A stretch of 64,000 bases of DNA, taken from assembly GCA_051362555.1 (NCBI GenBank), contig CM120641.1, positions 39,500,401 through 39,564,400 of the forward strand. Reading direction: 5' to 3'. The notes under the pieces are model-generated. The model was not told the origin of the DNA and made no database searches. It saw only the letters and a program-made list of their open reading frames with translations. Shown piece after piece: positions 13,301-52,042 of this stretch (position 1 is its first letter; each line of letters begins with the position of its first letter). This stretch comes from Lingula anatina (taxonomy: Eukaryota > Animalia > Brachiopoda). The position numbers were made by a program, and so were the translations under genes.

Positions 13301-16300
13301 GAATATTCATAATATGCAGGTCTAGTTCGAAAATCGGCATGATTGGGCCATTTTTAGGGAATTTATGCTGTTTTTTCACTTTTTCAGCATATATGTAGCA
13401 CCGATAACACAGTAAGTGGAAAACCATTTTACCTTTTGACTTGAAACTTACAGAACTGATGAATATGCATAATATGCAGGTCAAGTTCGAAAATCAGCAT
13501 GATTGGGCCATTTTTAGGGAATTTATGCTGTTTTTTCACTTTTTTCAACATATATGCAACATTAATAACACAATATAAGAAAAATTGTCATTATACTCAC
13601 AGGAGTGGTCAATCTTACAAAAATGCAGGTTGAGTTCGAAAATCAGCGTTATCGGGCCATTATTTTAGAAGTTATACTGTTTTTTTCAAATTTCCACAGA
13701 TTCAATTCTTAGGCATGTTAACAGTCTCATTATTGAACTAATAAGATACGTAACAGTGTTTGTTTGATATTTCCTGCATCTTTACAACATTGTTAGTTGA
13801 TTATGTAAAAATGATGGTAAACTTGTTATCATGTATTGTGTAATCAAGTGTCCAAAACGGAAATAAACTCATATCATTGCAGTTTGTCAGATTCAATCAT
13901 CCACATCTGCCATGATGACCATGATGGGAAAACCGTGTTACTTATGATTGTCAAACTTTCAAAAAAGAAACACAGGACTAAAATGCAGCCCAAGTTGGAA
14001 AAGCAGTCTAATGGGCTTCTTTTTCTGGAAGTTATACATTTTAGTGAAATATTCATTATCTTTTTGGCATATTCATTGTGGGACTCGGAGCTCCCATGGA
14101 CATGAAGCCGGATGGTAATCAAATTTTCTACATGTTCATGCTATTTATAGTCAATAATCAAAAATTGGTGATAATTATTCTATAATTTATTATGTAATGT
14201 TACATCAAAATTGACAATAATCTTTTTGCACTGCTACTGCAAACATTATGAAAAGAAAACTGTGTTATTTATTATTATATTTAACTTAAGAGTATGATTT
14301 TTAGGATTGGCATGCAGTTCAAATTAGAAAGCCAGGTCAATTGGGTTATCATTTATTATTGAATTTAATGCAATTTTGTGTGAAATTTCATTTTTCTCAT
14401 TCTGGCACTTTCTAAGTATAAACTTGAACTCTGATGGGCCTGAAGCCTTATGCTTTTACTTTCGTCGGTGTTACCTGTTGTGCAAAATTAAAATTTGATG
14501 TTGACTGTGCAGTTAAACATAATGTATTATTGCATCAGAAGTGGTAGTCTCCTATGTAGTAAATGTGCAGTAGCTCAGTATTGTGTTAGAGAATATCAGT
14601 GTTGTGAGTGTTGAGATCTCGGGAGAATACTGGAGACTTGAAAAATAAAGTATGGTGCTGGGAAATCAGACTTGGTGTCTTGTTGGTTTGAATCTAAGAA
14701 CATCTTAAAGAACATCACATTGGCGACGAGGAATTATGGAGGAGGAAGAACCCCAAGCAGTAAACTTGACGCATATACCAACTTTTCCACCTTTCATCAT
14801 CAGACAGGAACCGAACACCGTCTTTAAAAGATGGGGAAAATGGAAGGAAAGATTTGAAAACCTCATGGTTGCACTGAACATCAAAAACTCGCAACAGAAG
14901 AGAGCCATGCTTTTACATTTAGCTGGTGAGGAATTTTTAGACATTTTTGAGAATCTGCCAGACAGAGGGGACTCATATGAAGATGCGGTAGCTTCTTTTG
15001 GACAGTACGTAAGACCTCATCATAATCCTGAGTTTGAAATTTACAAATTTCGAAGCTGTAAGCAAGAACCTAGTGAAACCATTGATTCATACCATATCAA
15101 ACTAAGACAAATAGGAGCCAACTGTGGATTTGAAAATTTGGACAGAGAGGTTAAGTCACAAATTATACAAGGATGTACATCCCATAAATTGAGAAGAAAA
15201 GCTCTTAGTGACCAGACTCTCACTCTGAATAACTTGCTTACACATGCTAGAGCTTTAGAGCTGTCTGAGCAAAGATCCCATATTATGGAAGGCGATACCA
15301 GTCCTACCACAGTCTATGCCGTGAAAAAATCAGCACAAGCCCAAGCACCTAAACCACACAAGCCAAGTCATAACAAGTCGAAAACACAGCCAAAACAGGG
15401 TTTCAGGGAGTGTTGGTTCTGCGGTGGAGAGTACCCACACAAAGGAGTTTGTCCTGCCAAGGGTAAAATCTGCAGAAAATGTAACAAGTTGAACCATTTC
15501 CAAATCAAATGCAGAAGTAAAGAGAACAAAACAAAACCTGATCATGCTCCTATCAGTACTGTAAATGAAAATAAATGTAGCAAGTATATTATTGCTTTAC
15601 AGGTTAGCTCACAGTCTATTGACTTTGAGCTAGATACTGGTGCGTCTGTCACGTTGATTGGTCAAGATTTGTATGAATCAAAGTTCAAAGATCACCCTTT
15701 ACGTCAATCAGATTTGCATCTCACATCTTATTGCGGCAATCCTCTTAGTTTATTGGGGGAAATAACAGTCACAGTGAGTTACAATGACCAGTCTGTAGAC
15801 CTACCATTAGTAGTGGTGGAGGGATCTAAACCTGCATTGTTGGGGCAAAATTGGTTAGAGAAAATAAAGTTAGATTGGTCCAATGTCTTTTCTGTACAGA
15901 GTGACCCAAAGTTAAAGTCACTTCTGTCACAATACAAAGATGTATTTGCTCCAAGTCAAGGGTCAATCAAAGGTTTTGAAGCAGATGTTTACATTCCTGA
16001 AGGTACAACTCCCATATTCAAGAAAGCTTATAGTGTACCCTACCCTCTGCAAGATAAGGGCAAATCTCAGCTGTTGGAGGCAGTTGAGAAGGGTCATTAT
16101 ACCAAAGTAGAAAGTAGTAAGTGGGCGAGTCCACAAGTCACTGTTGTAAAACCATCAGGGGATCTGAGGTTATGTGGTGACTATAAGGTCACAGTTAATA
16201 CAGTACTAGACAAAGACCCATATCCACTCCCAACTATTCAGTCAGTACTGGCCAAACATGCAAAAGGGAAATTCAGATCTAAAATAGATTTGCGCGAAGC

Positions 16301-19300
16301 ATTTTCACAGTTAAGATTGAGTGAGAAGTCAAAACAATATCTCACGATTAACACTTTGATTGGTTTGTTACGCCCAGAGCGAATGCCGTATGGTATTACG
16401 ACTGCTCCGCAGCAGTTTCAACGCGTTATGGATCAAGTGTTGGATGGTATTGAGGAGGCTGCTTGTTCTATTGATGATATACTCATCACTACTGACACAG
16501 TAGAAGAACATTACATAGCACTACAACGTGTGCTGCAGAGACTCCGTCAGTACAATATCCGTGCACGTTTGTCAAAGTGTAGTTTCATTCAGAAACGTAT
16601 TGATATTCTTGGTCATACACTGGATGAAAGTGGTATACATCCAAGTGCCAAGAACATAGAAAATATCATGAATATGCCCAAGCCTGAAAATGTTTCAGAG
16701 CTCAAGTCATTCCTGGGAATGTTAAACTTTTATGGGAAATTCATAAAGAACATGTCTACTCAGGTGTCCACACTAAACAGGCTCTTAAGCAAAAATGTAG
16801 AGTGGAACTGGACAAAAGAGTGTGATGCTGCATTTAATGCTGCCAAGTCTGCTATTTCTGCAGAGTCCTGTCTCACACCCTATGATCCAAAACGGCCAAT
16901 CGTATTAGCTTGTGATGCATCATCAGTGGGGATTGGTGCAGTCATAAGTCATATTATGGAAGATGGTTCTGAACGCCCCATTGAAACAGCCTCTCGTACT
17001 CTTTCTAAAGCAGAAAAGAATTATGCTCAAATTGAGAAAGAGGCTTTAGCCATCATATTTGGTGTGAAGAAATTCCACATGTATTTATATGGAAGAGAGT
17101 TTACTCTTATTACAGACCATCTGCCTCTTGTGAAAATATTCAATTCACATACTGGTATACCGTCATTAGCTGCAGCTAGAATGCAACGCTGGAGTTTGAT
17201 TCTGTCAGCTTACAATTACAAGATAAAATATAGAAAGTCTGCTGACAAGGCAAGTGCAGATTGCTTTTCACGGTTACCAAATAAAAATTCTGAGCCTAGT
17301 GAGGATAACGAGTTTGTTGTCCATTGTGTGTCTTTCACAGAAGAATTACCTGTGAAAGCGAGTGATATTAGCAAAGCCACTATGAAAGACCCAGTTTTGT
17401 CCAGAGTGTATGATTTCACTCTTAATGGTTGGCCAAGCTATGTCAAAGACGATTCTTTGATGCCTTACTTTAGACGCAGAAATGAACTTACTGTTGACCA
17501 AGGTTGCATACTTTGGGGATTACGTGTCATCATACCACCTTGTTATCGTGACCGTTTACTTCGTGAATTACACGAAGAACATCATGGGATTGTTAGAATG
17601 AAGTCCTTAGCTAGAGGGTACTTGTGGTGGCCTGGACTAGATTCTGGAATTGAGTCTTTGGTCTCTGGATGTGATGAATGTCAATCAAACAGAGCCTTGC
17701 CAGCTGTTGCACCACTGATCCCATGGTCTTTCCCTTCACGTGTGTGGGAGAGGGTCCATATTGATTTCTTTGAGAAAGACAATCGTTCTTATTTGATACT
17801 GATTGATGCATATTCGAAGTGGATAGAAGTAGAAGAAATGCAATCTACTACTGCTTCGAAAACAATTGATGTTTTACGTTCGTGGTTTGCAAGAGCAGGT
17901 TTGCCTGAGATTATTGTGTCAGATAATGGACCACAGTTTACCTCAGGGGAGTTTCGTAAATTCTGTGAAATGAATGGAATAAATCACAAACTTATACCTC
18001 CGTACCATGCAAGCACGAATGGTGCCACTGAGCGTTCAGTGCAAGTTATCAAACAAGGGCTAACAAAACATATGTTAGAGAATAGGGAAGGTTCCCGCAG
18101 TCTGAGATTATCCCAGTTAATGATGCTGTATAGAATAACTCCGCATTCAACAACTGGTGTCAGTCCTTCTGAATTGTTCATGAAGCGTCAGATTAGGTCA
18201 AAATTTTCTCTTTTGAAACCCAGCCTTTCTATGTCTGTTGAAACAAAACAGGAAAAGCAATGTCAGTATCATGACAAACGTCCCAAGTCGCGTCACTTTA
18301 ACCTGTATGATAAGGTCAGAGTTCGCAATTTCAGAGGGGGGCAAGAGAAATGGGTTTCTGGTTGCATTGTGAAAGTTTGTGGGCCTCAGACATATGTTGT
18401 ACAAATTGGCAGATCGAAACGCTTTGTGCATATTGATCATATAATTGGTCCCACTGTTTCAAATGAAATGCCATTTTCTGATGAAGTTAATGTGACACTA
18501 CCTTCGAGAGAAAATGTTGAATCTGATTATCAAACAAAGACTGAATTTGAGCAACCTGGGCCAAGGTTTCATTCAGAACCTGTTCAAATTGAGCATGAAT
18601 CAGGTGATACAATGGACAATAGTGATGCAAAATTACCTGACAAATCTGAAGCTAGCAGTACATTTGTATCTGATGATGTTGAGGCTAGTCCTACTGTTGA
18701 TAAACAACCAGTTCGCAGATATCCACAAAGGGAGCGCAAAGCACCTGAGAGACTAACTTACACTTGACTGAGAAATATTTCTGTCATTAAAATTTTCTAG
18801 AGACATATTGTCTTACATGTAAGATGACCAAGGACTGTTAAAGGATTAATGAGAACTGTTGATCTGTTTACACTATGAAGTGATTATTTAGAGTGCCTCT
18901 GAGTATTTGTAACATTTTAGTTTATTTAGTTTTGTCATTATATAAGTAAAAAGAAAAAAAAAAATTTGCACATTTAAAGTCATTGTGGTGCATATCTCAA
19001 GAGGGAGAGATGTAGTAAATGTGCAGTAGCTCAGTATTGTGTTAGAGAATATCAGTGTTGTGAGTGTTGAGATCTCGGGAGAATACTGGAGACTTGAAAA
19101 ATAAAGTATGGTGCTGGGAAATCAGACTTGGTGTCTTGTTGGTTTGAATCTAAGAACATCTTAAAGAACATCACATCCTATTTTGTGCATTATTGTTTTG
19201 TGCTCTGAAAGACCTTTGAGAGGGTCAGTCTATAAATTTCCCTTGGGTATCACTTCGCTAATTTCAGTTATAAAGTAATTTGCCTAATTGATAGGCTACA

Positions 19301-21697
19301 TAAAGCACACTTGTGATTTGAGATTACATAAAGCACACTTGTTGATATTTCCCTGTAAACTCCCATAGGTTAAGCTCTCTGCTAGATTAATAATAAGGAA
19401 GCAGTGATAATTATGCAGGTAAATTTTGTTTAATATTGCAAATAAGTTATATATATATATATATCAAACTGAAAGATTAAAAGTTTGAATAGCAGCTTCA
19501 TTGGAATTATATTTACCTCTGCCAAGGAGGTTATATTTTCACCCCTGTTTGTCATCAACATAACTCAAAAAGTTATGGACCGATTTTACTGAAATTTTCA
19601 GGAACTGTCAGAAGTGGGCCAAAGAGGACAAAAATCAATAATAATCAACAATTGCTACCTTGGCAGAGGTCTGCACTCTCGGAGTGCTTTTCTAGTTTTG
19701 TTATGTTTTCCTTTATAATTTTTTCTCAAACACTTGCATTTGTGACTTTTAACTCTCATCCGCCTGAGACTCTGACATTTCTGTATTTTCACATAAGCAG
19801 TTGTATTGTTTTTTATGTCTTTAAACATTATGTTACTTATGTAATATTATTTTATGCACTGTCATCATTTTTCAAATATTGAGACTTACATCATGTGAAT
19901 TTGAACTCTCATGGTCCTGAAACTGTAATCTTATTGAAAGGGTAGATTGAGACCATCTTCTGGGACTTCTGGAAGACAGTCAGGTTATTAAGTTTATATT
20001 GCCTGGTATCTATTTTTTCTTCTGTTGGAAGACCATCAAAATGGAGGATGGATCAAAATAGATACTTTGGAATCCTGTCAGAGAATATCTCTGGGTCCGC
20101 TCATGTTATTGACCATTTTACCTGTTGTGCATGATTATAAAATTCAGTGTTGACTGATAGTGCTATTATAAGCATTATTTATTATTGCATCAAAATTAAC
20201 AAAATGACCTTTTTTGCATCTTTATTTTCTGTTTTTTGTCTGTACATTTGACAGCTTTGCTGCCTTGTTTTATATATTTGTAGCTGCTTAAGTAATGTAC
20301 TTTTGTCTTTTTTTTTACTGTATTTTTCTCTGTATGTGTTCACTGTAGGTTACTTAGTGCGTCCTTTCAAACACTGTGTGGACTTCTGCACAACTGCAAT
20401 GAAAGATCCCAACCTCCAGAGAGACAAGGGTATATGCTTTTACCTAGCTGTAGACCTGGCTCTCTGGTACATTTTCCTCTGCTTTTTTCATTTTCCATCC
20501 TTCTTATTTGACCTCTACATAAAGAATGTCTTCCAGCAAATTATCAGTTTGAAAATGTATACTAAAATACCTGCACCTTTCATATATAGAACCAAAATAG
20601 TTATACAGTAATGCATTAGTATTTCTTATAGCATGTTTTTTCTTCTCTCAAATCAGAGCAAAAGAAAAGTATTTAAGGATATTACAGCTGCAGTCCCTAG
20701 CACACCACGTCACTGATCATAATTTTTTTCCTGCAGGTTTGCAAGAATTAACCATTGGAAAGAATCCGATACCTGGTTTGAGAAAGCTTTGGAATGTCAG
20801 CCTCAAATTCTGGAAACTGTCACCTGCTTCAGGACCGTCTATGCCATGGTGAAGATGTGTGAATGTCGTCTGCTTTGTGCCAATAAGGCTGGTAAAAGAC
20901 CATTTGCTGATGCACTTCTCAAAAAGGCACAAAAGGTAAATTTCATATAGATCTACATCTACAATGGATTGGTTGGAGTGTCAAATGTTTTTTTTTCTTT
21001 CTTGAAATAAATATATTTATTTAAATTACAAGGTTGATGTAGTAACATTGATCTTTTATACAGGACCATCCCTTCATGATAAGAGATGAAGAATACAATT
21101 TTACCAAATGCATTTATCTTTAAAGTTTATTCAGATTATATGCTCATTTTTCCAGTCATTAAAAAGCCTTCAGAAGCAAGTTGGAATGCTTCAAGTCCTT
21201 CAGCCTCGTATGTTACATATGGAAGCATACCTCAGTGCTCTGAAAGGTAATCTACAGAGGGCTAAAAAATTGCTGACACAGTGTGAAACTGTCAGCAGTG
21301 CCATGGGGAACATTCTGGAAACAGAGTGGGCTGCTTGGTCTCAGAAGGTAGGATGTACATTTCAATGAAGTATTTCATCCAATTTTTGGCTAACTATTTA
21401 ATGTTAGTCTCATGAAAAATTATGCTCATTAAACTGATGTTCTACTTCATTTAAATGACACTGGACCAGTTTTTATCAAAGTACCAAACAAAGAGGAAAA
21501 AAATTAGCAATGCACAATTGTACCATTTGTTTAATTTAATATTTCAGGTATGGTTTGACCCAGCGTATGCTGATCATGAGAACGCATTCTGGATGCAGGG
21601 AGGTGTGACCAGAGTTCAGTCCATAGACAGCACTGGAACTGCAGCTAGTGTGAGGTTCTCTCTGCCACTGTCATCTGTGACACCGAATACTGCTTAG
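100..21697 (+). CDS. ADCY10: Soluble adenylyl cyclase (adenylate cyclase type 10), ~30+ exons
   Basis: ATG at 100 (MAHQ G|gt, 100-112) splices in phase to 239-550 (LLFVDVSGFT...VLKFAG) and 997-1143 (DAILAAW), forming catalytic domain C1. Then 1471-1676. C2 exons ~3166-4725 read FVNLML, NKIFMFDKGCTFL, CGVVGHKDRHEYTVIGRKVNMAARLM. P-loop GDSGMGKT at 5374-5397. Walker-B-like FAADDAHFID at ~6520. Large exon ~8311-8901 (RIDRM...LKCASLIG, QETAYEL). TPR-like C-terminal exons to 12714-12829, then 20349-20466, 20737-20935, 21155-21347, 21548-21697 (TAG). GT-AG borders throughout. Confidence 0.95.
635..692. repeat. (ATT)n microsatellite, ADCY10 intron
   Basis: Direct ATT run; produces the spurious poly-Ile ORF 518-727. 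Confidence 0.95.
9333..9390. repeat. (ATTT)n microsatellite next to an ADCY10 splice donor
   Basis: Direct tetranucleotide run. A similar run lies at ~10349-10398. Confidence 0.9.
13080..13680 (+). repeat. ~160-bp tandem (satellite-like) array inside HINE copy 1, ~3.5 units
   Basis: CCGATAACAC...AAGTGGAAAACCATT recurs at 13080, 13241 and 13401, and in degenerate form at ~13561. Confidence 0.9.
14555..14719 (+). repeat. 5' LTR
   Basis: TGTAGTAAAT...AACATCACA, contains AATAAA; identical to 19011-19175. Confidence 0.97.
14721..14732 (+). promoter_or_regulatory. Primer-binding site, complementary to the 3' end of tRNA-Ser(GCT)
   Basis: TGGCGACGAGGA lies 1 nt after the 5' LTR. Animal tRNA-Ser(GCT) ends ...UCCUCGUCGCCA (recalled, not searched). 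Confidence 0.8.
14736..18767 (+). CDS. Gag-Pol polyprotein, 1343 aa (gag zinc knuckles, protease, RT, RNase H, integrase)
   Basis: Uninterrupted ORF. Knuckles CWFCGGEYPHKGVC and CRKCNKLNHFQIKC; protease LDTGA; RT LRLCGDYK, KIDL, MPYG, SIDD; RNase H LACDAS...IEKE...ITDH; integrase HEEHH...CDEC, HIDF, SDNG, ERSVQ. PR-RT-RH-IN order is Gypsy-type. Confidence 0.97.
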   Translation: MEEEEPQAVNLTHIPTFPPFIIRQEPNTVFKRWGKWKERFENLMVALNIKNSQQKRAMLLHLAGEEFLDIFENLPDRGDSYEDAVASFGQYVRPHHNPEFEIYKFRSCKQEPSETIDSYHIKLRQIGANCGFENLDREVKSQIIQGCTSHKLRRKALSDQTLTLNNLLTHARALELSEQRSHIMEGDTSPTTVYAVKKSAQAQAPKPHKPSHNKSKTQPKQGFRECWFCGGEYPHKGVCPAKGKICRKCNKLNHFQIKCRSKENKTKPDHAPISTVNENKCSKYIIALQVSSQSIDFELDTGASVTLIGQDLYESKFKDHPLRQSDLHLTSYCGNPLSLLGEITVTVSYNDQSVDLPLVVVEGSKPALLGQNWLEKIKLDWSNVFSVQSDPKLKSLLSQYKDVFAPSQGSIKGFEADVYIPEGTTPIFKKAYSVPYPLQDKGKSQLLEAVEKGHYTKVESSKWASPQVTVVKPSGDLRLCGDYKVTVNTVLDKDPYPLPTIQSVLAKHAKGKFRSKIDLREAFSQLRLSEKSKQYLTINTLIGLLRPERMPYGITTAPQQFQRVMDQVLDGIEEAACSIDDILITTDTVEEHYIALQRVLQRLRQYNIRARLSKCSFIQKRIDILGHTLDESGIHPSAKNIENIMNMPKPENVSELKSFLGMLNFYGKFIKNMSTQVSTLNRLLSKNVEWNWTKECDAAFNAAKSAISAESCLTPYDPKRPIVLACDASSVGIGAVISHIMEDGSERPIETASRTLSKAEKNYAQIEKEALAIIFGVKKFHMYLYGREFTLITDHLPLVKIFNSHTGIPSLAAARMQRWSLILSAYNYKIKYRKSADKASADCFSRLPNKNSEPSEDNEFVVHCVSFTEELPVKASDISKATMKDPVLSRVYDFTLNGWPSYVKDDSLMPYFRRRNELTVDQGCILWGLRVIIPPCYRDRLLRELHEEHHGIVRMKSLARGYLWWPGLDSGIESLVSGCDECQSNRALPAVAPLIPWSFPSRVWERVHIDFFEKDNRSYLILIDAYSKWIEVEEMQSTTASKTIDVLRSWFARAGLPEIIVSDNGPQFTSGEFRKFCEMNGINHKLIPPYHASTNGATERSVQVIKQGLTKHMLENREGSRSLRLSQLMMLYRITPHSTTGVSPSELFMKRQIRSKFSLLKPSLSMSVETKQEKQCQYHDKRPKSRHFNLYDKVRVRNFRGGQEKWVSGCIVKVCGPQTYVVQIGRSKRFVHIDHIIGPTVSNEMPFSDEVNVTLPSRENVESDYQTKTEFEQPGPRFHSEPVQIEHESGDTMDNSDAKLPDKSEASSTFVSDDVEASPTVDKQPVRRYPQRERKAPERLTYT
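19011..19175 (+). repeat. 3' LTR
   Basis: Preceded by the polypurine tract and followed by TSD TCCTA. Confidence 0.97.
19512..19697 (+). mobile_element. Small HINE/Helentron-type mini-element nested in HINE copy 1
   Basis: Begins TTTACCTCTGCCAAGGAGGTTAT and ends CCTTGGCAGAGGT-CTGCACTCTCGGAGTGC-TTTTCTAGTT: 13-bp subterminal inverted repeat plus 3' hairpin. Also present at 26905-27142 in copy 2. Confidence 0.7.
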
Positions 21698-26200: not shown

Positions 26201-29200
26201 AAGTTCAAAGTTTTCCCCACCCCATATCATCATTCCTGGATCATAACCTCCTAATTCAAAGAAGTATTTTCTGTCCATTGCAAACAATCCACCTGCATGG
26301 GTTGGAGACCTGCAATGTAATTATCATTTCAAAAAACTAACAAGGCAGCAAAGCTGTCAAATGTACAGACAAAAAACAGAAAATAAAGATGCAAAAAAGG
26401 TCATTTTGACAATTTTGATGCAATAATAAATAATGCTTATAATAGCACTGTCAGTCAACACTGAATTTTAATCTTACACAACAGGTAACATGGTCAATAA
26501 CAGGAGCGGACCCAGAGATATTTTCTGACAGTATTACGAATCTATGTTGATCCATCCTCCATTTTGATGGTCTTCCAACAGAAAAAAATAGATACCAGTC
26601 AATATAAACTTAATAACCTGACTGTCTTCCGGAAGACCCAGAAGATGGTCTCAATCCACCCCTTCAATAAGATTACAGTTTCAGGACCATGAGAGTTCAA
26701 ATTCACATTATGAAAGTCTCAATATTTGAAAAATGATGAAAGTGCATAAAATAATATTACATAATGTTTAAAGACATAAAAAACAATACAACTGCTTATG
26801 TAGAAATACAGAAAATGTGCAGAGCCCCAGGCAGATGAGAGCCTGCCTGGGGCTAAAAGTCACAAATGCAAGTGTTTGAGAAAAAATTATAAAGGAAAAC
26901 AACAAAACTAGAAAAGCACTTTGAGAGTGCAGACCTCTGCCAAGGCAGCAATTGTTGATTATTATTGATAATTGATTGATTATTGATCCGGACCACCACC
27001 AAAAATTAATCATTGTCCTCTTTGGCCCACTTCCGACAGTTCCTGAAAATTTCTGCAAAATCAGTCCATAACTTTTTGTGTTATGTGGATGACAGACAAA
27101 CAGGGGTGAAAATATAACCTCCTTGGCAGAGCTTGAGGTAAATATAATTCCAATGAAGCTGCTATTCAAACTTTTAATCTTCCAGTTTGATATATATACA
27201 TATATATATATATATAAAAAACTTATTTGCAATATTAAACAAAATTTACCTGCATAATTATCACTGCTTCCTTATTATTAATCTAGCAGAGAGCTTTACC
27301 TTTGGGAGTTTACAGGGAAATATCAACAAGTGTGCTTTACGTAATCTCATTTAATGGCCTATTAAAGCAAATGACTTTATAACTCTGACATTAATCTAGT
27401 GATACCCAAGGGTAATTTACAGACTGACCCACTCAAAGGTCTTCAGGCCCATAAGTCACACCTTAAGAAAAGCACAAAACCATAATGCCCAAAATAGGAG
27501 ACTACCAATCCTGATGCAATAATACATTATGTCAACATCAACTTATGCACAACAGGTAACACAGACGAAAGTAAAAGCATAAGGCTTCAGGCCCATCAGA
27601 GTTCAAGTTTATACTTAGAAAGTGCCAGAATGAGAAAAATGAAAATTTCACAAAAAATGCATAAATACAATAAACATGATAATCCAATAGAGCTGGTTTT
27701 CTCATGAGCTGAAGGCCAATCCTAAAAATCGTACTTGTAAGTTTAAAATTATAATAAGTAGCACAGTTTTCTTTTCATAATGTTTGCAGTAGCAGTGCAA
27801 AAAGATTGTCAATTTTGATGTAACATTACATAATAAATTAGAGAATAATTATCATCAATTTTTGTTTATTGACTATAAATAGGATGGACATGTAGAAAAT
27901 ATGATTACCATTTGGCTTCATGTCCATGGGAGCTCCGAGTCCCACAATGAATATGCCAAAAAAGATAATGAATATAACACTAAAATGTATAGCTTCCAGA
28001 AAAAGAAGCCAATTAGACTGCTTTTCTAACTCAGGCTGCATTTTAGTCCTGTGTTTCTTTTTTGAAAGTTTGACAGTTATAAGTAACACGGTTTTTCCAT
28101 AATGGTCATCAAGGCAGCAGCATCAAAAATTGTTTTCTTCTATTTTGATGCAACATTACATAATGCTTAACAGCATAATGACCATCGATTTTTAATAATA
28201 AAATATAAGTGTCATGGATTTTCACAAAATGTGACTAGCACGGGTCTTCAAGCCCGTGGAGGTTCTAAGTCACACCTTGGAAATGCCAATATGTGAAAAA
28301 TTAAATTTTCACAAAAAACTGTTTAATTGCCAGAAAAATTTACCAAACAGACTGCATTGCCTACTGAAGCTGTATTTTAGACCCACATTTCTTTCCTGTA
28401 AGTTTGAGAACAGTAATTGACATGATTTTTGTTAAATGGTCATCATGGGAGCAGTGCCCAAAAAAGGGGTTTCTTCAAATTTTGATGCAACATTACATAA
28501 TGTTTAACAGCATAATGACCATCAATTTTTAATTATAAAATATTAGTATCATGGATATTCAGGAAATGTGACAAGCAAAGGTCTTCAGGATCATGGAACT
28601 TCAAAGTCACACCTTGAAAATGCCAATAAGTGAAAAATTAAATTTTCACAAAAAACTGTTTAATTGCCAGAAAAATTTACCAAACAGACTGCATTGCCTA
28701 CTGGAGCTGTATTTTAGTCCCATGTTTCTTTCCTGTAAGTTTGAGAACAGTAAGTGACATGATTTTCCTTAAATGGTCATCATGGGAGCAGTGCCCAAAA
28801 TAGGGGTTTCTTAAAATTTTCATGCAATATTACATAATGTTTTACTGCATAATGACCATCAATTTTTAATTATAAAATATTAGTATCATGGTTATTCAGA
28901 AAATGTGACTAGCAAAAGCCTTCAGGCCCATGGAACTTCAAAGTCACATATTGAAAATGCCAAAATGTAAACAATACAGCACTGTTCTGAAATGGGTTTA
29001 TTTCCATTTTTAACACTTTTTAAACATAAAACAACATAAACAGTTTACTGCCATTTTTATATGACCAATGAAGAAAATTGATGAGATGGGAAAAGTATCA
29101 ATAGAACAGTTTTAAATGTCCAACTTCCTCCATTCTGAGATTCTGAACATAGTGGATGAATACATCTGACAAACTGCAATGATATGAGTTTATTTCCATT

Positions 29201-32133
29201 TTTGACACTTTATTACACAATACATGATAACAAGTTTACCATCATTTTTACAAAATCAACTAACAATGTTGTAAAGATGCAGGAAATGCCAAACAAACAC
29301 ATTTACGTATCTTATTAGTTCAATAATGAGACTGTTAACATGCCTAAGAATTGAATGTGAGGAAATGTGAAAAAACAGCATTACCTTTTAAAATAATGGA
29401 CTGATTACGCTGATTTTCAAACTCAACCTGCGTTTTAGTAAGATTGGCCCCTCCTGTGAGTATAATGACAATTGGCCAATCTGTTTTTCTTATATTGTGT
29501 TATCAGTGTTGCATATATACTGAAAAAAGTGAAAAAAAAACAGCATAAATTCCCTATAAGTGACCCGATCGTGCTGATTTTCGAACTTGACCTGCGTATT
29601 ATGAATATTTATCAGTTCTGTAAGTTTCAAGCCAAAGGGTAAAACAGCTCTTCATTTATTGTGTTATCAGTGTTGCAAAAATGCTGAAAAAAAGTGAAAA
29701 AATAGCCTAAATTCACTAAAAATGACCCAATCATGCTGATTTTCGAACTTGACCTGCGTATTATGAATATTCATCAGTTCTGTAGGTTTCAAGCCAAAAG
29801 GTCAAATGGTTTTCCATTTATGGTGTTATCCGTGCTGCATATATGCTGAAAAAAGAGAAAAAATAGCCTAAATTCACTAAAAATGACCCAATCACGCTGA
29901 TTTTCGAACTTGACCTGCATATTATGTATATTCATCAGTTCTGTAAGTTTAAAGCCAAAAGGTAAAATGGTTTTCCACTTATTGTGTTATCGGTGCTGCA
30001 TATATGCTGAAAAAAGTGAAAAAACAGCATAAATTCCCTATAAGTGACCCGATCATGCTGATTTTCGAACTCGACCTGCGTATTATGAATATTCATCAGT
30101 TCTGTAAGTTTCAAGCCAAAAGGTACAATGGTTTTCCACTTATCGTGTTATCGGTGCTGCATATATGTTGAAAAAAGTGAAAAAACAGCATAAATTCCCT
30201 AAGAGTGACCCGATCATGCTGATTTTCGAACTTGACCTGCGTATTATGAATATTCATCAGTTCTGCAAGTTTCAAATCAAAAGGCAAAATGGTTTTCCAC
30301 TTATCGTGTTATCGGTAAAAGTGCACGGCGACGGCGACGGCGACAGCGACGACGGCGACGACAGACGCAGATGATGGCTATATGTACAGACACATCTGTG
30401 TCTGTACATAAAAATTAAGTTAATGTTTTCTTGTTAATGACAATGAAGAAACAATACCTGTCAGACTGTTTCCTTTACAGAGCATAGCGTTTGTTTTTTT
30501 TTTTTTCTAAATGGTCTGCTTGAATACTTTGTACCAAAAATGCTCCTTGTAAAGCATGTCTAATTACTGACTATTCAAAACTATTTTTTGACAAAATGGC
30601 AAAAAGTTGGCAATTTTTTCCTACCTATAAGGTTCACTGGAATGCTCTCTTCGAGCAAGTTCTTTATCAGGAACTTTTGATTCTTTATATAAAAATCCCC
30701 ATTCAAATATTCCTCTATGGTCCCCAGAACTGCCATAAACAGAGTGATAGCGGAAATTATTCCAATCTATGCCATCAACTATAGGTACAGCCATTATTGT
30801 TCTGAAATAAAGAAAAAGTGACAGCTGCTGAAGTTGTTTGCTAATGTTCAACATATTTCACATCCATCTTTAGCAAATTTGATTTGTCAAATAAACATTC
30901 AGCAAATATAAGTCCAAGTTTTAGAGTGTCAATGATGACTATATTACCTCAAAAATCAGGCACACTGACATAGGGTTGAATTTCTTAAACTCTCAAACTG
31001 GGATATGCCGCAAGTAAATATATCTAAACTTTATATCTTGTGATATTTACGAGTAGTTAGGTTCATTACTTAACAGAGGAAGAGCCCCATTTTCCTAAAT
31101 AGATAAAGGCCATTTCTCTAAAGTATCACTGAGATTTTGGATTTGAAAAACATTTGCAAAAGAATAGTGTTCTTTTTCCTGATATTTACTGACCTGTCAT
31201 ATGCTATTCTGGCCAATAGAGGGACAAGCCAGTTTTTATTACATTCACAATGTGCATCCAGAAACACTATAACATCTCCTTTAGAATACTTTGCTCCTAA
31301 AGTACGAGTGCGAATGAGACCTTCTCGCTTGGAATTTCTATACAATTTGACTTTATCTCTAAAATTTTTCAGAAGGTAATCCTCCAGTTTTCCTTGCAGA
31401 TGCTCTGAAATTGACAAAGTTGTAATTTCTTCAATCATTCTAGAAGCCTTAATAAGTCATGTCCATTAGGGTTCACTTGATTTTAGATGTCAACACTTCA
31501 AATTGATATAATATGGAAGTAATATAATGTTTACGTATGAAGACTTAGCACAGTTGTTATGTAATTTAAATTTTTTCAATGCTTGCATCAAAGTCTATAT
31601 CAAAGAAACAACTTTGGTAGAGATATTCTACACTCTTATTAAATCTTAAATAGACTATGATCCCATTTGGAAATTCATATTGAAAAAGTCCTAACCATTT
31701 TTTTTCAATCAATAATATTCCATACCACAGCAGATGTTAAGAACAAGCAATAAAGCCATAGCATAACTCACATTTACACAGAGCACTCATAAATGTGAGT
31801 TGCACCAGGAATGGGTCCATTGTTGTAGACAACCACCGTAGCGCAAGTCAAATAACACGACATGTCAGCCAGACGTGGTCAGCACCCACGTGTGCCACAT
31901 ACACCTTACCGACTTGTGATGTGTCTAATTACACCTACCTTTGTCACTGAAGTCATCCACCATGACCACTTCCCGCAGCAGATGAGGGGGACTAGTGTTG
32001 ATGACACTGTGAACTGTTCTCACTAGAGTACTGAAGCCCTCATTGTGAAAAACCAAGATGACACTGGCAGTGGGCAACTTCTCAGGATACTGCCAGTACT
32101 TACACCTGAACAGAAATTTAATTACTTTTTTTA

Positions 32134-33782: not shown

Positions 33783-35544
33783 GTTTACTACCTTGGTCCA
33801 AAAAGTCCAAAATGAATGCCTGCAACAACCCTAACAAAAAGATATTATCCATTTATATATTCCAGTGTTTTGCTTTTTTTTTTGTTTTCAGTTTGAATGC
33901 AGTTACTTCAATATAACAAATTGTTAGTGTGTAAGCATGCACAAGGCAAATGTTTATACAATACTTTTTTACTTGGTATGTATATTATTTAAGCTAACAA
34001 GAAAGGAGACAACTAATACATTTACCAGGTTTTGCTTGGTGTACCATTTCGGTTTGAAATATGTGATTATATAAATATTTTCAAAATCTGTTATATTTAT
34101 GACTTTTGCTGACTGTAAGATAAAATACCATGGATCTGTATAAAAATGAGCCAGTGTTACTAATGTATGCAATGGAACCGATGTTCTTGTGTGCAGAACA
34201 TCTGAAATAAGAAGTCACAGGTCAAACAAATACTCACTGTGTTTTCTGTTCTCTTTCACACCTCAAATCCAGTTGACACACCCCTTTACCTTTTTGTACC
34301 TGTGGATAATAATTAGAATAAACAGTTATTTAACAGCATTTATTTCATATATTCACAATACATATATAGTTCTATTTTAGTCAAAAGTACAATCTCCTCT
34401 TTTTCTAATGAAACCTCATTCCAATGAACATTATTTATTTGGAGGCCCTTTTTGCTCTTCGTGTGCCTCTAAAATGCAACTTAGGATTTCACAATGCCAA
34501 CTTAAATATGCAATTAGTTACTCTCAAATTAGTTGACAGACACCACCAACCTCTGGACATCACATAGCTCTGGGCAAACCAACTTAAACAATTAGATTGC
34601 AAAGTATAACATCATTCTCCACACATTTTTTTTTTTTCATTTTTGTTGCTGGGGGAGGGGGTGGGACACATAATATTAAATCTGTTCATCATCATTCTAA
34701 CCAACAAAATCAGTGACATTGTTCAAAGAGGATGTGGTTAGATAACCCCAGCTGTCACAGCCCAGATTGAACTGGTGTGATTTTTAAAGTACAATTGGAA
34801 TAAATTGCCACACTTTGCTCTAGTATCAGCCAATGCCAATCAGAATATTTAAAAATGTTCTCCTTATAAAATGTTGATTTATTCATTCAGTCACTAAAAA
34901 TTGTGGTCTGCTGTTATTTATCTGTATATGTCAATCTATGTCATATTTATGGAAATAGTCACAGATCTCATGAGGCAAAGTACAGTAAGACATACTAGTA
35001 CATATGTACTAGTAAGTGTAACTCGATCTTGACTTGCCAGTCTTATTTTGGTTTCTTCAATGAATGAGCATTTGGTAAGTTGGAGGGGGGGGGGGGGGTA
35101 AAGCAAGATATACCGTCCAGCTAAAATGCATTAAATAACATACCTAATTTGTGAACAAGACAATATTGTTGCTCGATCTTCAAACAATTATAATTATATA
35201 GTTCATGCAGCACCACAATCTCTCCAAAATGGACGCACATAACCTAATACCAACACTTTAATGATGCACTAATATGATGAAGAATTGTTATTATATAGCA
35301 TCATATATTATTTGTTGCTGATGATGGTACCTTTAATTTCACAGACCACCTGAATTTATGGTCAGAGCGTAATTAAAAGCTTTTCCTTGAACAATTTATT
35401 TGACAACCAATGCTGTAATGCAGTCAACTCCTAATCTTAAATTATACATAACCTTACCTGTTTTCATAATATGTTCATTCTGCACAGATCATAGTCCAGG
35501 CTCAGTTTACGGAGTTTACAAAACATGCACACATTACTGGAGTG

Positions 35545-35565
35545 ACAACATGGCCCGGAAGTGGA
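35545..35565 (-). promoter_or_regulatory. Putative GALNT7 core promoter motifs (ETS CCGGAAGT next to YY1-like AACATGGC)
   Basis: CCGGAAGT at 35555-35562, just upstream of a minus-strand donor (CAG|GTAAGG at 35458/35457). A probable 5' UTR exon lies at 34299-34238. Confidence 0.45.
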
Positions 35566-36113
35566 TTTTAGCACGAGAGGGCAGAACACGCCAAGACAAG
35601 ACAATGTCGTCTTTTCCTTATCATGAAAAATCTCCCAGACGTCGAGACCTGTATAGGTACTCGAGCGAATAATCTCAGTACAGGCTCGACAGATGCATTT
35701 CATTTCATTTTTTGTTTATTTTAGACGCTTATGGTGTTTAAAAGACATAACAGCTAAAATTTAAACAAGCTAAGCATAGCAAATTTTAAGGTCGGCCTTT
35801 TTTGTCAAATCTACAGTGAATAAAACAACATCAGTAACTATTTCCTTTGGTCAATTGTAAATTTTCCCATATATCAATCCAATACCCAATATATTTTTGA
35901 ATTTTCAGAAAAAGGGTCGTGAAAAATATTTCCTTAAAATAAGAGCCAGACGCGCTTGTAAACAAACTTTTCAAATTGTTCTACCGGTACGTACTGTAGG
36001 TCCGTCCTCTTTTTATCATATAAAAAAAAAACAACAAGAAGGGCTTATTTATAAAGTTCCCATGTATCCCAGGGGCGAATACAGAGATATTTTCTGACAG
36101 TCTTCCTTACCAC

Positions 36114-36617
36114 CTTACTGTGCCGCTATCAGTAAGCAACACCACCACTTAAGCGAGATACTTTCGTGGTTTCACAACATCGTCACAAGCGAGACACTTG
36201 TGAACGTACTCTCTTACTGTGATCTGCCTGGCAGATACACACATACAAAGGCGAGACACCTTTGTAAGGACGAGACGTCCTCGCACAAAAGTGCACTTAC
36301 AATCTGCGAAAGCAGACACACACTCACAAAGGCGAGACACCTTTGATGAGAACCGGGTTCTCTCCACCTGGGGAAAACCACTTGCTGCTATACAGCATTG
36401 ACCACCCCCTCACACCCACCCCCCCTTTTTTCGGACTCTGCAGCTGATGAAGGTCACTTGTTGACCGAAGAGCGCTTTCTGCAACCAGTCCACCCCCTCC
36501 CCCCTCCAGGCTGTACGTCTCGTACAACCTTTCTCTGGTCACTTTCATACAGAGGTGAGACGCCTCTCTCTACACCACGCTGAGGTGAGACGCCTCATGC
36601 AGTACGCTGTACACAGC
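36114..36617. repeat. Cluster of short hairpins with a shared YGAGACR loop
   Basis: Hairpins at 36151-36163, 36183-36203, 36244-36266, 36267-36281, 36327-36345, 36512-36526 (inverted), 36551-36567 and 36581-36597, plus other stems. Confidence 0.85.
36433..36491 (+). ncRNA. Type-I hammerhead-ribozyme-like motif (minimal, palindromic stem III)
   Basis: GGACT-C-TGCAG [CTGATGA] A-GGTCA-CTTGT-TGACC [GAAG] AGCGCT-TT CTGCA-ACC-AGTCC. Bulged stem I, CUGAUGA core, 5-bp stem II, palindromic stem III. Fourth base of GAAA is G. Confidence 0.62.
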
Positions 36618-38464
36618 AACGCACACACACTCCATCAGATATAACTATAAACTGATATATCAAATCACTCTTTCACACAAACGTAACGAAGGAAAATCCA
36701 CGGGAATCGGAGCATCTCAATCCCGAGCGTCCCACTAACAATCTCTAAGCTTTTAACTAGGGGCGTTGTCAAAACACACGTCCCCAGGGGCCCAGCCTTG
36801 GATCGTGTTATTTTGATTAGAGGTAGTTTAACTAAGGCATGAGCCGACCACCCCCAAACAGAACTAAGAATTAAACCTGGTATCATTATTCACGGAAAAA
36901 ATTGGTCAGTTACCGGTAGCATAGCATTTCAAAACGTCTAGGTGGAAGGAAAGATTTAAACTATAAGGCCACTAAAGATGTCAACAAACAATTGTTTTCT
37001 ATTCATTTTGACAAAGGATGTTTAACATATTTAATACCTGTATCATTGTTCTTATCATTTATTATCATAATTCATCTATTTCGGTACAAATAGACCTACA
37101 TTTTTGCAATGACTATGAACAAACGATATATTGTTTAAATGAGGCGGTAAAACTACAAAAAATAATTTTCAAATATATTTTCACAAAGTTGTTTTAAAAC
37201 TTGATCATTAATACATTATATAATCAAGTGCTGTAGTCATAAGAGCAGTATTCTACAATGTATTTGGTCGTACCAGTGCCTTATTATACTTATGTTAAAG
37301 GAAATTTATTTTTCGTTTACATAGACAATTATTGTCCGTGTCTTCGAGCAACATATCCAATGTATGGAAATTTATCTCATGAATTTCCTGATTTGATGTC
37401 TTACTGCATTATACATGTATAATAGAAAGAATCGATTACAGCTGGGAAGAATTAGTCTATACTTCGTAGGCGGTGATAATTAAACCACATGAAATAGGTA
37501 ATCTCATTATTGATCTCTATTAAGTCTGTCAGACTGACTCAAATCAAGAAAGTCAGAGCATCTGCATGCATGAAGTATTTTTTTTTTCTTGTAGCAAACT
37601 TAATGGTTACGTGAACGTGATGCCCGGTGGTCGGCTTGATAGGTCGGGTGAACAACATAAACAGAAAAAAGTGCTAGGAAAGGTAAAACTTTCAAGACTA
37701 TAGTGTTCCATTTACTTTCGGTCTTTCTTTTAAATACTTGAAAGAATTTTCTGAGCGAGTTCTCATGGAGAGCCGAAAAATAGATACATGATAGGGAAAG
37801 GAAAATCAAACGTCTTAAGGTGTTACAAACATTTTGTTGTTTAAAAACGGCGTCAGAACTTTAGGAGAGAGAGAGAGACAGAGAGATTCTTCAGGTCTAA
37901 AGGGTTTTCCATTCAAAAACATCCGCATGGCTTACCTGAGTGAAAAGACCACGTTTATTTTTAGGAGACCCCTCCCCCCTCCCCACGTCAAATCAAAATT
38001 CCTTCAACGGACTTGTAACGTTGGCCCTACATCCCCGGTAAACTTATTATTTTTCGATATTTTGGAGAAACGGGTAAATTTTTTTTAGTCGGTTGCATTA
38101 GTTGAGGCGAATGGAGTGTTGCGCATAAAACAATCAATTGAATCATCAGAGAAATAGGCGATACGAAAACGCCTTTATCCATCTCTGATTAAAGAGCTTC
38201 CGATAGGGTCTTGATTTAAGTCTGGTAAGATAGCTGATACGTGCTGTTGAAAAGCCTATATGAGATATACATTTTAAGTGGTCGTAGTAATTAGAAAATG
38301 ATAAAACCGTTTTGATTATGGTTACAACGGTATTTTTGGCTGTAATGGCTCTAGCTTTACAAGAGAAACTACGGCTGTGCTCAGAATAGATTGGAGTTCT
38401 CGTAGCCTACTAGCAGGATTGATTTATCCAGCGGGGATTCTCGCTACGGCGCAGTCGAAGTAAT

Positions 38465-38584
38465 CAGCTTAATTGTCTGGCGCACCCCCTCGTAAATTAA
38501 AATACTTGGGTTAAGTCGGGACAACTTTGTGGTCCAATGTTGTTCATGTTGCTTTGCGAGGGGGCGTGCCAGACGATTAAGCTG
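38465..38584. mobile_element. Small foldback/MITE-like element upstream of QPCT
   Basis: 32-bp imperfect inverted repeats CAGCTTAATTGTCTGGCGCACCCCCTCGTAAA (38465-38496) and 38553-38584. Confidence 0.65.

Positions 38585-39093: not shown

Positions 39094-52042
<12,949 letters not shown>

What the first reader, a model, noticed from the sequence alone, without database searches (positions are those of the whole stretch)
36114..36617. Array of hairpins with variable stems and a constant GAGAC loop, surrounding a hammerhead motif: candidate undescribed structured RNA or retrozyme-like element
Seen: eight hairpins share a loop but differ in stem: AAG-cgagata-CTT (36151), TCACAAG-cgagaca-CTTGTGA (36183), TACAAAGG-cgagaca-CCTTTGTA (36244), AGGA-cgagacg-TCCT (36267), CAAAGG-cgagaca-CCTTTG (36327), TGTA-cgtctcg-TACA (36512, inverted), AGAGG-tgagacg-CCTCT (36551), TGAGG-tgagacg-CCTCA (36581). 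Further stems are interspersed (CTTACTG/CAGTAAG, ATCTGC/GCAGAT, TCTGC-GAAA-GCAGA, GAGAACC/GGTTCTC, TGCTG/CAGCA), and a hammerhead-like core sits in the middle. Inference: different stems with retained pairing imply selection on structure rather than simple tandem duplication. The CGAGACA and TGAGACG variants are what CpG decay of an ancestral CGAGACG (C-G closing pair, GAGAC pentaloop) would give. I know no described element with this layout. It could be a non-autonomous Penelope-like or retrozyme RNA carrying multiple protein-binding stem-loops, or an ssDNA-folding element.
Basis: partly seen in the sequence, partly recalled or inferred. Interest (0 to 1): 0.85.

Follow-up and report, generated by a model that had tools for sequence, protein, structure and literature searches.

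The report
Hairpin-studded Penelope-type ribozyme jumping repeat
The hairpin array is real and belongs to a repeated, protein-less element of an animal genome that carries a hammerhead (predicted self-cutting) RNA motif and is likely pasted by Penelope-like retrotransposons; that kind of element is known, but its interchangeable hairpins with one fixed loop, which likely serve as repeated binding sites, seem undescribed.

Summary
Confirmed: eight hairpins with a GAGAC-type loop (8 against 0.03 in 2000 shuffles) and a type I hammerhead at 36433-36491. Contigs of four DNA runs show a repeat family. The element is 36104-36860, with depth about 8-32 times the flank over the hairpin blocks, about 190 over the hammerhead and about 100 over a 3' block that ends sharply. 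It has no target duplication, terminal inverted repeats or poly(A). Other copies skip or swap hairpin modules and join head-to-tail. The hammerhead has the features of Penelope-like elements, and the family carries the canonical core A that this copy lacks. Best reading: a 5'-shortened, non-coding passenger of a Penelope-like retrotransposon (retrozyme-like). The hairpins are accessory modules, partly plain duplicates. Family variants tend to avoid them, and CpG decay in this copy is not supported. RNA reads are few and come mostly from other copies. Not shown: cleavage, circular RNA, the partner element, a ligand for the loop. New variant of a known kind.

The parts
36104..36860 (+). The element: one 5'-shortened copy of a non-coding hammerhead repeat family
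   Evidence: Depth far above the flanks throughout, falling from 5860 to 75 across 36860; loose ends at 36104 and 36857-36860
36070..36103 (+). Left end of a separate very-high-copy short repeat (MITE-like), fused to the element at a few shared bases; probably the insertion target or a recombination partner
   Evidence: 102-149 contigs per run have unrelated sequence before 36070, most continue after 36104-36106 with the other family's sequence; window copies at 26501 and 20102
36114..36397 (+). Hairpin block 1: five GAGAC/GAGAT-loop hairpins (36151, 36183, 36244, 36267, 36327) plus other stems, joined by A/C-rich linkers
   Evidence: (36240-36385 z -5.6); depth 9-32 times the flank over 36115-36346, 2-5 times over 36347-36404; modules skipped or replaced in other copies (table 5)
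36303..36316 (+). GNRA tetraloop hairpin; loop GAAA here, GCAA in other copies
   Evidence: 36309 A>C in 342 of 1110 DNA depth and 9 of 9 X18 reads
36433..36491 (+). Type I hammerhead: distal stem I 36433-36437/36487-36491, stem I 36439-36443/36479-36483, core 36444-36450, extra A 36451, stem II 36452-36456/36462-36466, GAA 36467-36469, short palindromic stem III 36470-36477, predicted cut after 36478
   Evidence: Read from sequence, stems I and II; depth about 187-189 times the flank; 36470 is A in 15825 of 15944 DNA depth and 39 of 42 RNA reads
36492..36510 (+). Pyrimidine tract ending in CAG/G: possible 3' splice site just after the hammerhead (inferred, low confidence)
   Evidence: Pyrimidine tract plus CAG also in loose ends of other copies in X4, X15, X12; no spliced read listed
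36512..36757 (+). Hairpin block 2: inverted-loop hairpin 36512-36526, GAGAC hairpins 36551-36567 and 36581-36597, further stems; missing or replaced in other copies
   Evidence: depth 8-16 times the flank over 36521-36694; joints 36504>36756, 36565>36750/36751, 36579>36715
36758..36860 (+). High-copy 3'-terminal block, predicted recognition and copying-start domain
   Evidence: Depth 93-130 times the flank; varied sequence before 36759 in other copies; 3 contigs begin at 36827, 34 bp from the end
36836..36860 (+). Small terminal hairpin (GGC-ATGA-GCC, 36836-36845) followed by a 14-nt A/C-only run at the fixed end
   Evidence: similar small hairpins near the end of PAc and at the end of the Hydra-2_Amil consensus; absent from 5 other Hydra consensi and found in 0 of 127 metagenome segments

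Best explanation
This is one copy of a multi-copy, protein-less repeat family carrying a type I hammerhead motif, and it is likely a 5'-shortened passenger copied in trans by the reverse transcriptase of a Penelope-like element (PLE), with the GAGAC hairpins as interchangeable accessory modules that likely fold in the + strand RNA and likely present one fixed loop many times to a protein. Steps. (1) Shown: multi-copy family, fixed right end, other copies extend further left, head-to-tail joints, modular swapping of hairpin blocks, PLE-type hammerhead with a canonical core in the family. (2) Inferred from published PLE biochemistry: the PLE protein nicks AT-rich DNA and starts reverse transcription inside the RNA, at the A/C-rich end of the 3' block, which gives a fixed end without poly(A); copying stops early or jumps to a second RNA, which gives 5'-shortened and tandem copies. 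(3) Inferred: the hammerhead, with its short palindromic stem III, cuts best when two copies pair, trimming tandem transcripts; this copy is probably impaired by its G at core position 15.1. (4) Inferred: the hairpins arose by duplication of one ancestral hairpin and are reshuffled by template jumps; they are not needed for copying, since most family members lack them. My odds for the parts: PLE-dependent retroposon about 0.75; hairpins kept as RNA structure about 0.6; the loop itself read by a protein about 0.35.
For: Family and ends. No target duplication, no terminal inverted repeat, no Pfam match in the 4 open frames of 75 codons or more over the element. Head-to-tail joints from the 3' end back to three different inner points (36854>36240, 36860>36450, 36860>36499), one restarting about 6 nt after the predicted cut. 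Hammerhead traits named for PLEs in PMC4209133 (helix I of 4-5 bp, extra base between positions 9 and 10.1, G10.1-C11.1, palindromic helix III) are all present; PLE-X1_cBra is tabulated with the same stem III letters as the family here. The same core and stem II start sits about 95 nt after a GIY-YIG frame in L034. PLE copies are 5'-truncated partial tandems with a 30-40 bp tail (PMC8557442); 3 contigs start 34 bp from the end. PAc starts copying inside the RNA at an AC-rich stem-loop (PMC11167929). RNA-side signs: + strand folds better against shuffles, unpaired bases are 70% A/C, GAAA/GCAA swap, two G-U pairs are Watson-Crick in other copies, 2 of 27 listed variants fall in the eight hairpins (21% expected, p 0.05) and 7 of 27 in any stem (47% expected, p 0.02). 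Among the paralogous hairpins 43 of 48 cells pair and 14 cells change on both sides.
Against: No autonomous partner was found or could be searched (no genome held). Only one hammerhead in this copy. No pile-up of read starts or ends anywhere, including the predicted cut (table 6: none), on very few reads. Listed loose ends at 36860 are only 4-6 contigs per DNA run, far fewer than at 36070. The joints are single contigs, several with 'between: not known'. Summed contig depth is not a copy number (tool's warning). The 27 variants are a best-supported subset (40 rows of 160, those in 36104-36757), and 5 of the 7 in stems break the pair of this copy's fold; no two-sided change between copies could be phased. 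The paralog covariation is partly circular (hairpins were chosen for pairing) and inflated by register shifts. The terminal-hairpin likeness is post hoc and absent from 5 of 6 Hydra consensi and 127 of 127 metagenome segments. The surroundings of this hammerhead are C-rich, unlike the AT-rich ones in the metagenome loci. In X15 the 6 reads on the 3' block lie on the opposite strand from the 4 on the hammerhead.
Confidence: 0.62

Rival explanations
1. Same element, but the fixed loop has no function: one hairpin was duplicated recently within a subfamily, and template switching during copying perfected or flipped the stems, so that 'constant loop, varied stem' is a mutational pattern.
For: Two pairs of hairpins are plain duplicates; hairpin blocks are about tenfold rarer than the hammerhead and 3' block, so they are dispensable; one loop is inverted inside a self-complementary stem, as hairpin micro-inversion would give (mechanism recalled); one loop reads GAGAT; the depletion of variants in the hairpins is only p 0.05.
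Against: GAGA is invariant in 8 of 8 hairpins while each of six stem positions shows 2-4 pair types; seven of eight loops face the same strand as the hammerhead; linkers vary more than hairpins among copies.
Confidence: 0.2
2. A classical non-LTR retrozyme: tandem hammerhead-to-hammerhead units give abundant circular RNA, and the GAGAC loops stabilise the circle, for example by kissing the complementary GUCUC loop at 36517-36521.
For: Type I hammerhead, non-coding, highly folded; joints from the 3' end back into the hammerhead region; the inverted loop is exactly complementary to the others.
Against: One hammerhead only; the stretches before 36400 and 36846 are unrelated, so no tandem unit here; the inverted loop is changed in 262 of 441 depth at 36518 and by insertions at 36517 and 36520; 1-9 reads per million in three RNA runs, though two are poly(A)-selected and would miss circles.
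Confidence: 0.1
3. A DNA-level element (hAT/Harbinger-type MITE or rolling-circle Helitron-like element) whose hairpins fold in single-stranded DNA or are transposase sites, and which captured a hammerhead from a PLE.
For: The copy begins with the end of a MITE-like family, and the 3' block starts with the same seven letters; that family also has a GAGAC-type hairpin (19949, 26652); one loop is inverted; rolling-circle elements also give one fixed end and tandems (recalled).
Against: No terminal inverted repeat or target duplication; other copies do not carry the MITE-like end (loose ends at 36104); the hammerhead is the most conserved and abundant part; GNRA swap and A/C-rich linkers point to RNA; a 3-4 bp stem at one of 82 sites is expected by chance.
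Confidence: 0.08

Closest known systems
Pseudo-LTRs of Penelope-like elements with minimal or variant type I hammerheads (Cervera and De la Pena 2014, PMC4209133; Craig et al. 2021, PMC8557442; Frangieh et al. 2024, PMC11167929)
   Same: Hammerhead with short helix I, extra base before stem II, G10.1-C11.1 and palindromic helix III; fixed 3' end downstream of it in A/C-rich sequence; 5' shortening, partial tandems, hint of a 34-bp tail; no poly(A).
   Different: No reading frame; C-rich rather than AT-rich surroundings; 380 nt from predicted cut to end in this copy; arrays of same-loop hairpins, not mentioned in the parts of these papers that I read and absent around 118 of 118 metagenome loci with the same core.
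Animal non-LTR retrozymes (Cervera and De la Pena 2020, PMC7229834; Li, Clavereau and Pollet 2026, bioRxiv 10.64898/2026.07.22.740005)
   Same: Non-coding, highly folded, species-specific repeat with a type I hammerhead; proposed to be non-autonomous PLE derivatives; solitary monomer copies are common.
   Different: No tandem unit with two hammerheads in this copy; body is modular and differs between copies instead of being one repeated monomer; abundant circular RNA not shown.
Non-autonomous Chlamys PLEs such as MRC1 (PMC8557442, passage)
   Same: Non-coding passengers that form pseudo-LTRs and head-to-tail insertions and share the 3' end with a partner.
   Different: Green algae; most Chlamys lack a hammerhead; partner known there, not here.

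Membership tests
Non-autonomous Penelope-like element (pLTR derivative) | Type I hammerhead of PLE type (short helix I, extra base at 9/10.1, G10.1-C11.1, palindromic helix III) | tested here: met
   against the descriptions; core A15.1 present in the family, not in this copy
Non-autonomous Penelope-like element (pLTR derivative) | Fixed 3' end downstream of the hammerhead, 5' truncation, no poly(A) | tested here: met
   Depth falls 5860 to 75 across 36860, varied sequence behind 36857-36860 in 7 of 7 runs laid; other copies extend left of 36104
Non-autonomous Penelope-like element (pLTR derivative) | Partial tandem (head-to-tail) copies | tested here: inconclusive
   Three back-joints from the 3' end, each in single contigs of 2-3 runs; none in this copy
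Non-autonomous Penelope-like element (pLTR derivative) | 30-40 bp optional tail | tested here: inconclusive
   3 contigs of X8 begin at 36827, 34 bp before the end; no copies ending at 36826 are listed
Non-autonomous Penelope-like element (pLTR derivative) | Inverted 5'-truncated copy next to the insertion (frequent, not obligatory) | tested here: not met
   No long inverted repeat of the element in 34500-38500
Non-autonomous Penelope-like element (pLTR derivative) | 3' end shared with an autonomous RT + GIY-YIG element of the same genome | not testable with these tools
   No genome held; no PLE frame among 99 of 106 window frames scanned
Animal non-LTR retrozyme | Type I hammerhead in a non-coding repeat | tested here: met
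Animal non-LTR retrozyme | Tandem units, at least two consecutive with a complete hammerhead | tested here: not met
   One hammerhead; no tandem repeat here. Other copies not readable in full
Animal non-LTR retrozyme | Self-cleavage and abundant circular RNA | not testable with these tools
   Three RNA runs, two poly(A)-selected, 148 reads in all
MITE / cut-and-paste DNA transposon | Terminal inverted repeats and target-site duplication | tested here: not met
   none for a left edge at 36070 or 36104
Plant LTR retrozyme | Type III hammerhead in two LTRs, 4-bp target duplication | tested here: not met
   Type I layout, no LTR pair; definition. The duplication search covered 5 bp and longer only
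Helitron-like element | 5' TC and 3' CTRR ends (recalled, from no call) | tested here: not met
   The fixed end at 36860 reads CA on + and TG on -; the family's other end is unknown
Any family already in Dfam or Repbase | Full-length match to a catalogued consensus | not testable with these tools
   Libraries not available; Rfam gave no match

The most novel reading that the evidence does not exclude
A Penelope-dependent RNA parasite that builds arrays of one fixed-loop hairpin as repeated docking sites for the PLE protein (or a host RNA-binding protein), and shuffles them as cassettes around a hammerhead by reverse-transcriptase template jumps: a natural, multimerised recognition signal that would reveal what a PLE enzyme binds.
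Probability: 0.2. Interest if true: 0.72.

Novelty: new variant of a known kind. Interest (0 to 1): 0.42.

Why it matters
How PLE proteins choose their RNA and where they start copying is only partly known: one element has been studied in vitro, and its binding motif was narrowed only to a 172-nt region (PMC11167929). A short non-coding passenger with a fixed 3' block, a canonical hammerhead and optional arrays of one loop offers a compact natural substrate, with built-in variants that have or lack the arrays. If the loop is a binding site, it names the signal. If not, the family is still a clear case of hairpin modules multiplying and reshuffling in a retroelement RNA.

Tried and rejected
Rfam at gathering score over the window and at E up to 10 over 35500-37300: nothing meaningful. 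No tRNA-like head in the window; no B-box pattern in 36001-36900. No second copy of the hairpin array, hammerhead or 3' block in the window. Viral contigs, three patterns: 27, 2 and 2 loci, all isolated chance matches. Prokaryote genomes, end motif: 7 loci, none matching beyond 21 bases. Metagenomes, hammerhead pattern: 118 loci (scan cut at its limit), PLE-type hammerheads of other organisms, none related beyond the core (longest match 26 bases) and at most 2 hairpins sharing a loop (81 of the 118 segments were full length). No RNA holder listed in the run index; this is no evidence on expression. No RNA read on the right flank 36869-36930 and 5 of 148 reads 99% or more alike, so transcription of this copy is neither shown nor excluded. 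Rejected ideas: that the ATG at 36839 opens the partner's frame (it is the loop of the terminal hairpin; the peptide start has 0 hits in the supplement of PMC8557442); that the element starts at 36070 (that end belongs to another family); CpG decay in this copy; a conserved GAGAC/GUCUC kiss (the partner loop varies). A spliced form using the acceptor at 36509 and a donor-like CAG/GT just left of 36104 in other copies is not among the listed joints. I did not search the protein databases for a partner PLE, since hits carry no DNA context. Literature searches for the layout: 'GAGAC loop' + 'hairpin' 0 papers, 'GAGAC' + 'pentaloop' 0, 'hammerhead' + 'Harbinger' + 'non-autonomous' + 'transposon' 0, 'Lingula' + 'hammerhead' 1, with the word only in a reference. 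The library lacks most subscription papers and Repbase Reports.

Full report
Setting. The window is AT-rich animal DNA (about 35% G+C) with scattered exon-like frames and repeats. No whole genome is held. Earlier AI notes on this genome call it the brachiopod Lingula; I did not test that label. All ten runs that hold part of the stretch are of one coded organism.

Observation. In 36114-36617 there are 13 hairpins of 5 bp or more (shuffles 2.9 +/- 1.7), 8 with a GAGAC or GAGAT loop (0.03) and 7 sharing one 5-mer (1.07, maximum 3); 0 of 2000 shuffles reach any of these. All 7 GAGAC/GTCTC words in the region lie in stems of 4 bp or more, against 2 of 82 elsewhere in the window. Hairpin number alone is exceeded by 3 of 252 tiles, but the two tiles over the finding lead for a shared loop. 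The stems are partly duplicates: a 34-nt module occurs twice at 91% and a third time at 62%, and the last two hairpins share 15 bases. Across the eight hairpins GAGA is invariant, 43 of 48 stem cells pair and 14 change on both sides. This count is partly circular and includes register shifts.

Hammerhead. 36433-36491 reads as a type I hammerhead: 5-bp stem I with a distal 5-bp extension, CUGAUGA, one extra A, 5-bp stem II opening with G-C, GAA, a short palindromic stem III, and a predicted cut after 36478 (read; stems I and II also). This copy has G where the core has A15.1. The family has A in 15825 of 15944 DNA depth (26 contigs) and in 39 of 42 RNA reads. PMC4209133 (parts 1-2 of 4 read) lists a short helix I, the base between 9 and 10.1, G10.1-C11.1 and a palindromic helix III as marks of PLE hammerheads that act as dimers with low activity. 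The table in the supplement of PMC8557442 (parts 1, 2, 49, 52, 53 of 59 read, plus two searches) gives PLE-X1_cBra the same stem III letters. A metagenome scan with the core and stem II ends gave 118 loci; 3 of 9 long frames tested match GIY-YIG or RT, and in L034 the hammerhead lies about 95 nt after the GIY-YIG frame on the same strand. None of the 118 has a hairpin array: at most 2 hairpins share a loop.

Family and boundaries. Contigs of four DNA runs and one of them again with three RNA runs show flanks at single-copy depth and a repeat between them. Against a flank depth of 80.7 in X8, block 1 is at 9-32 times, the hammerhead at 187-189, block 2 at 8-16 and the last 100 bases at 93-130. 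Summed contig depth is a rough relative measure, not a copy number. The right end is fixed: depth drops from 5860 to 75 across 36860, and sequence behind 36857-36860 varies in all seven runs, although only 4-6 contigs per DNA run are listed at that point. The first 34 bases (36070-36103) belong to another family at over 1200 times the flank depth, two copies of which lie in the window. Other copies of the element continue left of 36104 with a different sequence (2 contigs each in X1 and X8, 4 reads in X18), so this copy is shortened at its 5' side and fused to that repeat at a few shared bases. There is no target duplication, terminal inverted repeat or poly(A).

Modularity. Joints show copies that go from different hairpins of block 1 to the hammerhead, from just after the hammerhead or from block 2 to the 3' block, and from the 3' end back to 36240, 36450 or 36499. 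The last restarts about 6 nt after the predicted cut (one contig each in X1 and X2). Three contigs begin at 36827, 34 bp before the end. Each joint is a single contig per run and several have unknown sequence between. Taken with the depths, the likely picture is a common short form of hammerhead plus 3' block, and subfamilies with added hairpin modules. PMC8557442 (passages and section 11) describes PLE insertions as 5'-truncated partial tandems with an optional 30-40 bp tail. PMC11167929 (parts 1-2 of 4 and supplement 1) shows that the anole PLE protein starts copying inside the RNA at an AC-rich stem-loop downstream of the hammerhead, and found no reads ending at the cut site. The end here is a small GGC-ATGA-GCC hairpin and 14 A/C bases. 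A similar hairpin lies near the end of PAc (letters extracted from a figure) and ends the Hydra-2_Amil consensus, but not the other 5 Hydra consensi nor any of 127 metagenome segments; I noticed it after the fact.

Is the structure kept, and as RNA? The + strand, which carries the hammerhead, folds better against shuffles (z -4.9 against -2.8), and its unpaired bases are 70% A or C. Of the 27 listed variants in 36104-36757 (from the 40 rows shown of 160), 2 fall in the eight hairpins where 21% is expected (p 0.05), one at a terminal pair and one in the inverted loop; 7 fall in any stem where 47% is expected (p 0.02), two turning G-U into Watson-Crick pairs and five breaking a pair of this copy's fold. 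A GAAA loop is GCAA in other copies, both GNRA. No listed row restores a CpG at a loop, so CGAGACA and TGAGACG appear to be family states and not decay in this copy. The inverted loop is the least conserved, which speaks against a fixed kissing partner. Two-sided changes between copies could not be phased.

Expression. 10, 35 and 103 reads were laid from 9.5, 12.4 and 11.1 million records (1-9 per million). Five of 148 are 99% or more alike, most run on into unrelated sequence, and none covers the right flank. In X12 first mates lie mostly on the - strand, which would mean + strand RNA in a usual stranded library; X15 is split by block and X18 looks unstranded. No starts or ends pile up. This looks like read-through of scattered copies; two libraries are poly(A)-selected and cannot show circles.

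Mechanism. I commit to a non-coding passenger of a PLE (confidence 0.62 for the whole reading): transcribed on the + strand, copied from a start in the A/C-rich end of the 3' block, often cut short or joined to a second template, with a hammerhead that trims tandem transcripts when two copies pair. The hairpins came from one ancestor by duplication, move as cassettes, are dispensable for copying, and likely present one loop repeatedly to a protein; that last step is the weakest (about 0.35). Rivals: the loop is a neutral by-product (0.2), a classical circular retrozyme with kissing loops (0.1), a DNA-level element (0.08).

Comparison and novelty. It works like a PLE pseudo-LTR derivative and like the animal non-LTR retrozymes of PMC7229834 (passages and section 14) and bioRxiv 10.64898/2026.07.22.740005 (parts 1-3 of 5; its supplements could not be seen and may list related families). 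It fails the retrozyme test of two consecutive hammerhead units in this copy, and the shared end with an autonomous PLE could not be tested, so I file it as a probable, not proven, non-autonomous PLE. Earlier notes of this scan report several such elements in other animals, so the class is common; none of them holds all the words of this layout and no look-alike sequence is indexed. Searches for the loop in print gave nothing, within a library that lacks most subscription papers and Repbase. Verdict: real, explained in outline by a known class, with one undescribed trait (swappable same-loop hairpins). Interest 0.42; new variant of a known kind.

Noticed in passing
window 14554-19176: LTR retrotransposon of Gypsy-type domain order: two identical 167-bp repeats around an open 1352-codon frame with protease, RT, RNase H and integrase matches; looks recent.
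   Followed up: partly
window 26501-26665 (+) and 19940-20102 (-): Two copies of a ~165-bp MITE-like repeat with imperfect inverted ends and a near-duplicated flank, inside a 1.1-kb inverted duplication. Its left end gives over 1200 times the flank depth and it carries a short GAGAC-type hairpin near its right end.
   Followed up: partly
window 36071-36077 and 36759-36765: The MITE-like end and the element's 3' block begin with the same seven letters, and a CCACCCCC motif recurs before and after the hammerhead and at the very end (36400, 36488, 36846). Unexplained.
   Followed up: partly
window 36492-36510 and loose ends at 36104: Acceptor-like pyrimidine tract and CAG after the hammerhead in several copies, and a donor-like CAG/GT upstream in other copies: possibly an intron of about 410 nt holding block 1 and the hammerhead, recalling the intron next to the hammerhead of Penelope. 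No spliced read listed.
   Followed up: partly
window 12971-13904, 27494-30415: Composite repeats with a (CGTCGC)n microsatellite and 161-bp and 337-bp tandem units; they resemble Helitron-derived satellite carriers of molluscs (recalled). The 161-bp unit matches the hammerhead core pattern; I did not check it for stems.
   Followed up: no
window 5203-5484 (+), 31121-31456 (-), 45873-46268 (+): Exon-like frames matching AAA_16, Glycos_transf_2 and Peptidase_M28; the element lies between the last two, with no coding match nearer.
   Followed up: no
L034:2500-3492, L056, L092: Animal-like PLE fragments in metagenomes: GIY-YIG or RT frames beside hammerheads with the same extra A, in the same strand (L034) or inverted (L056, L092); several loci hold two hammerheads on opposite strands.
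   Followed up: partly
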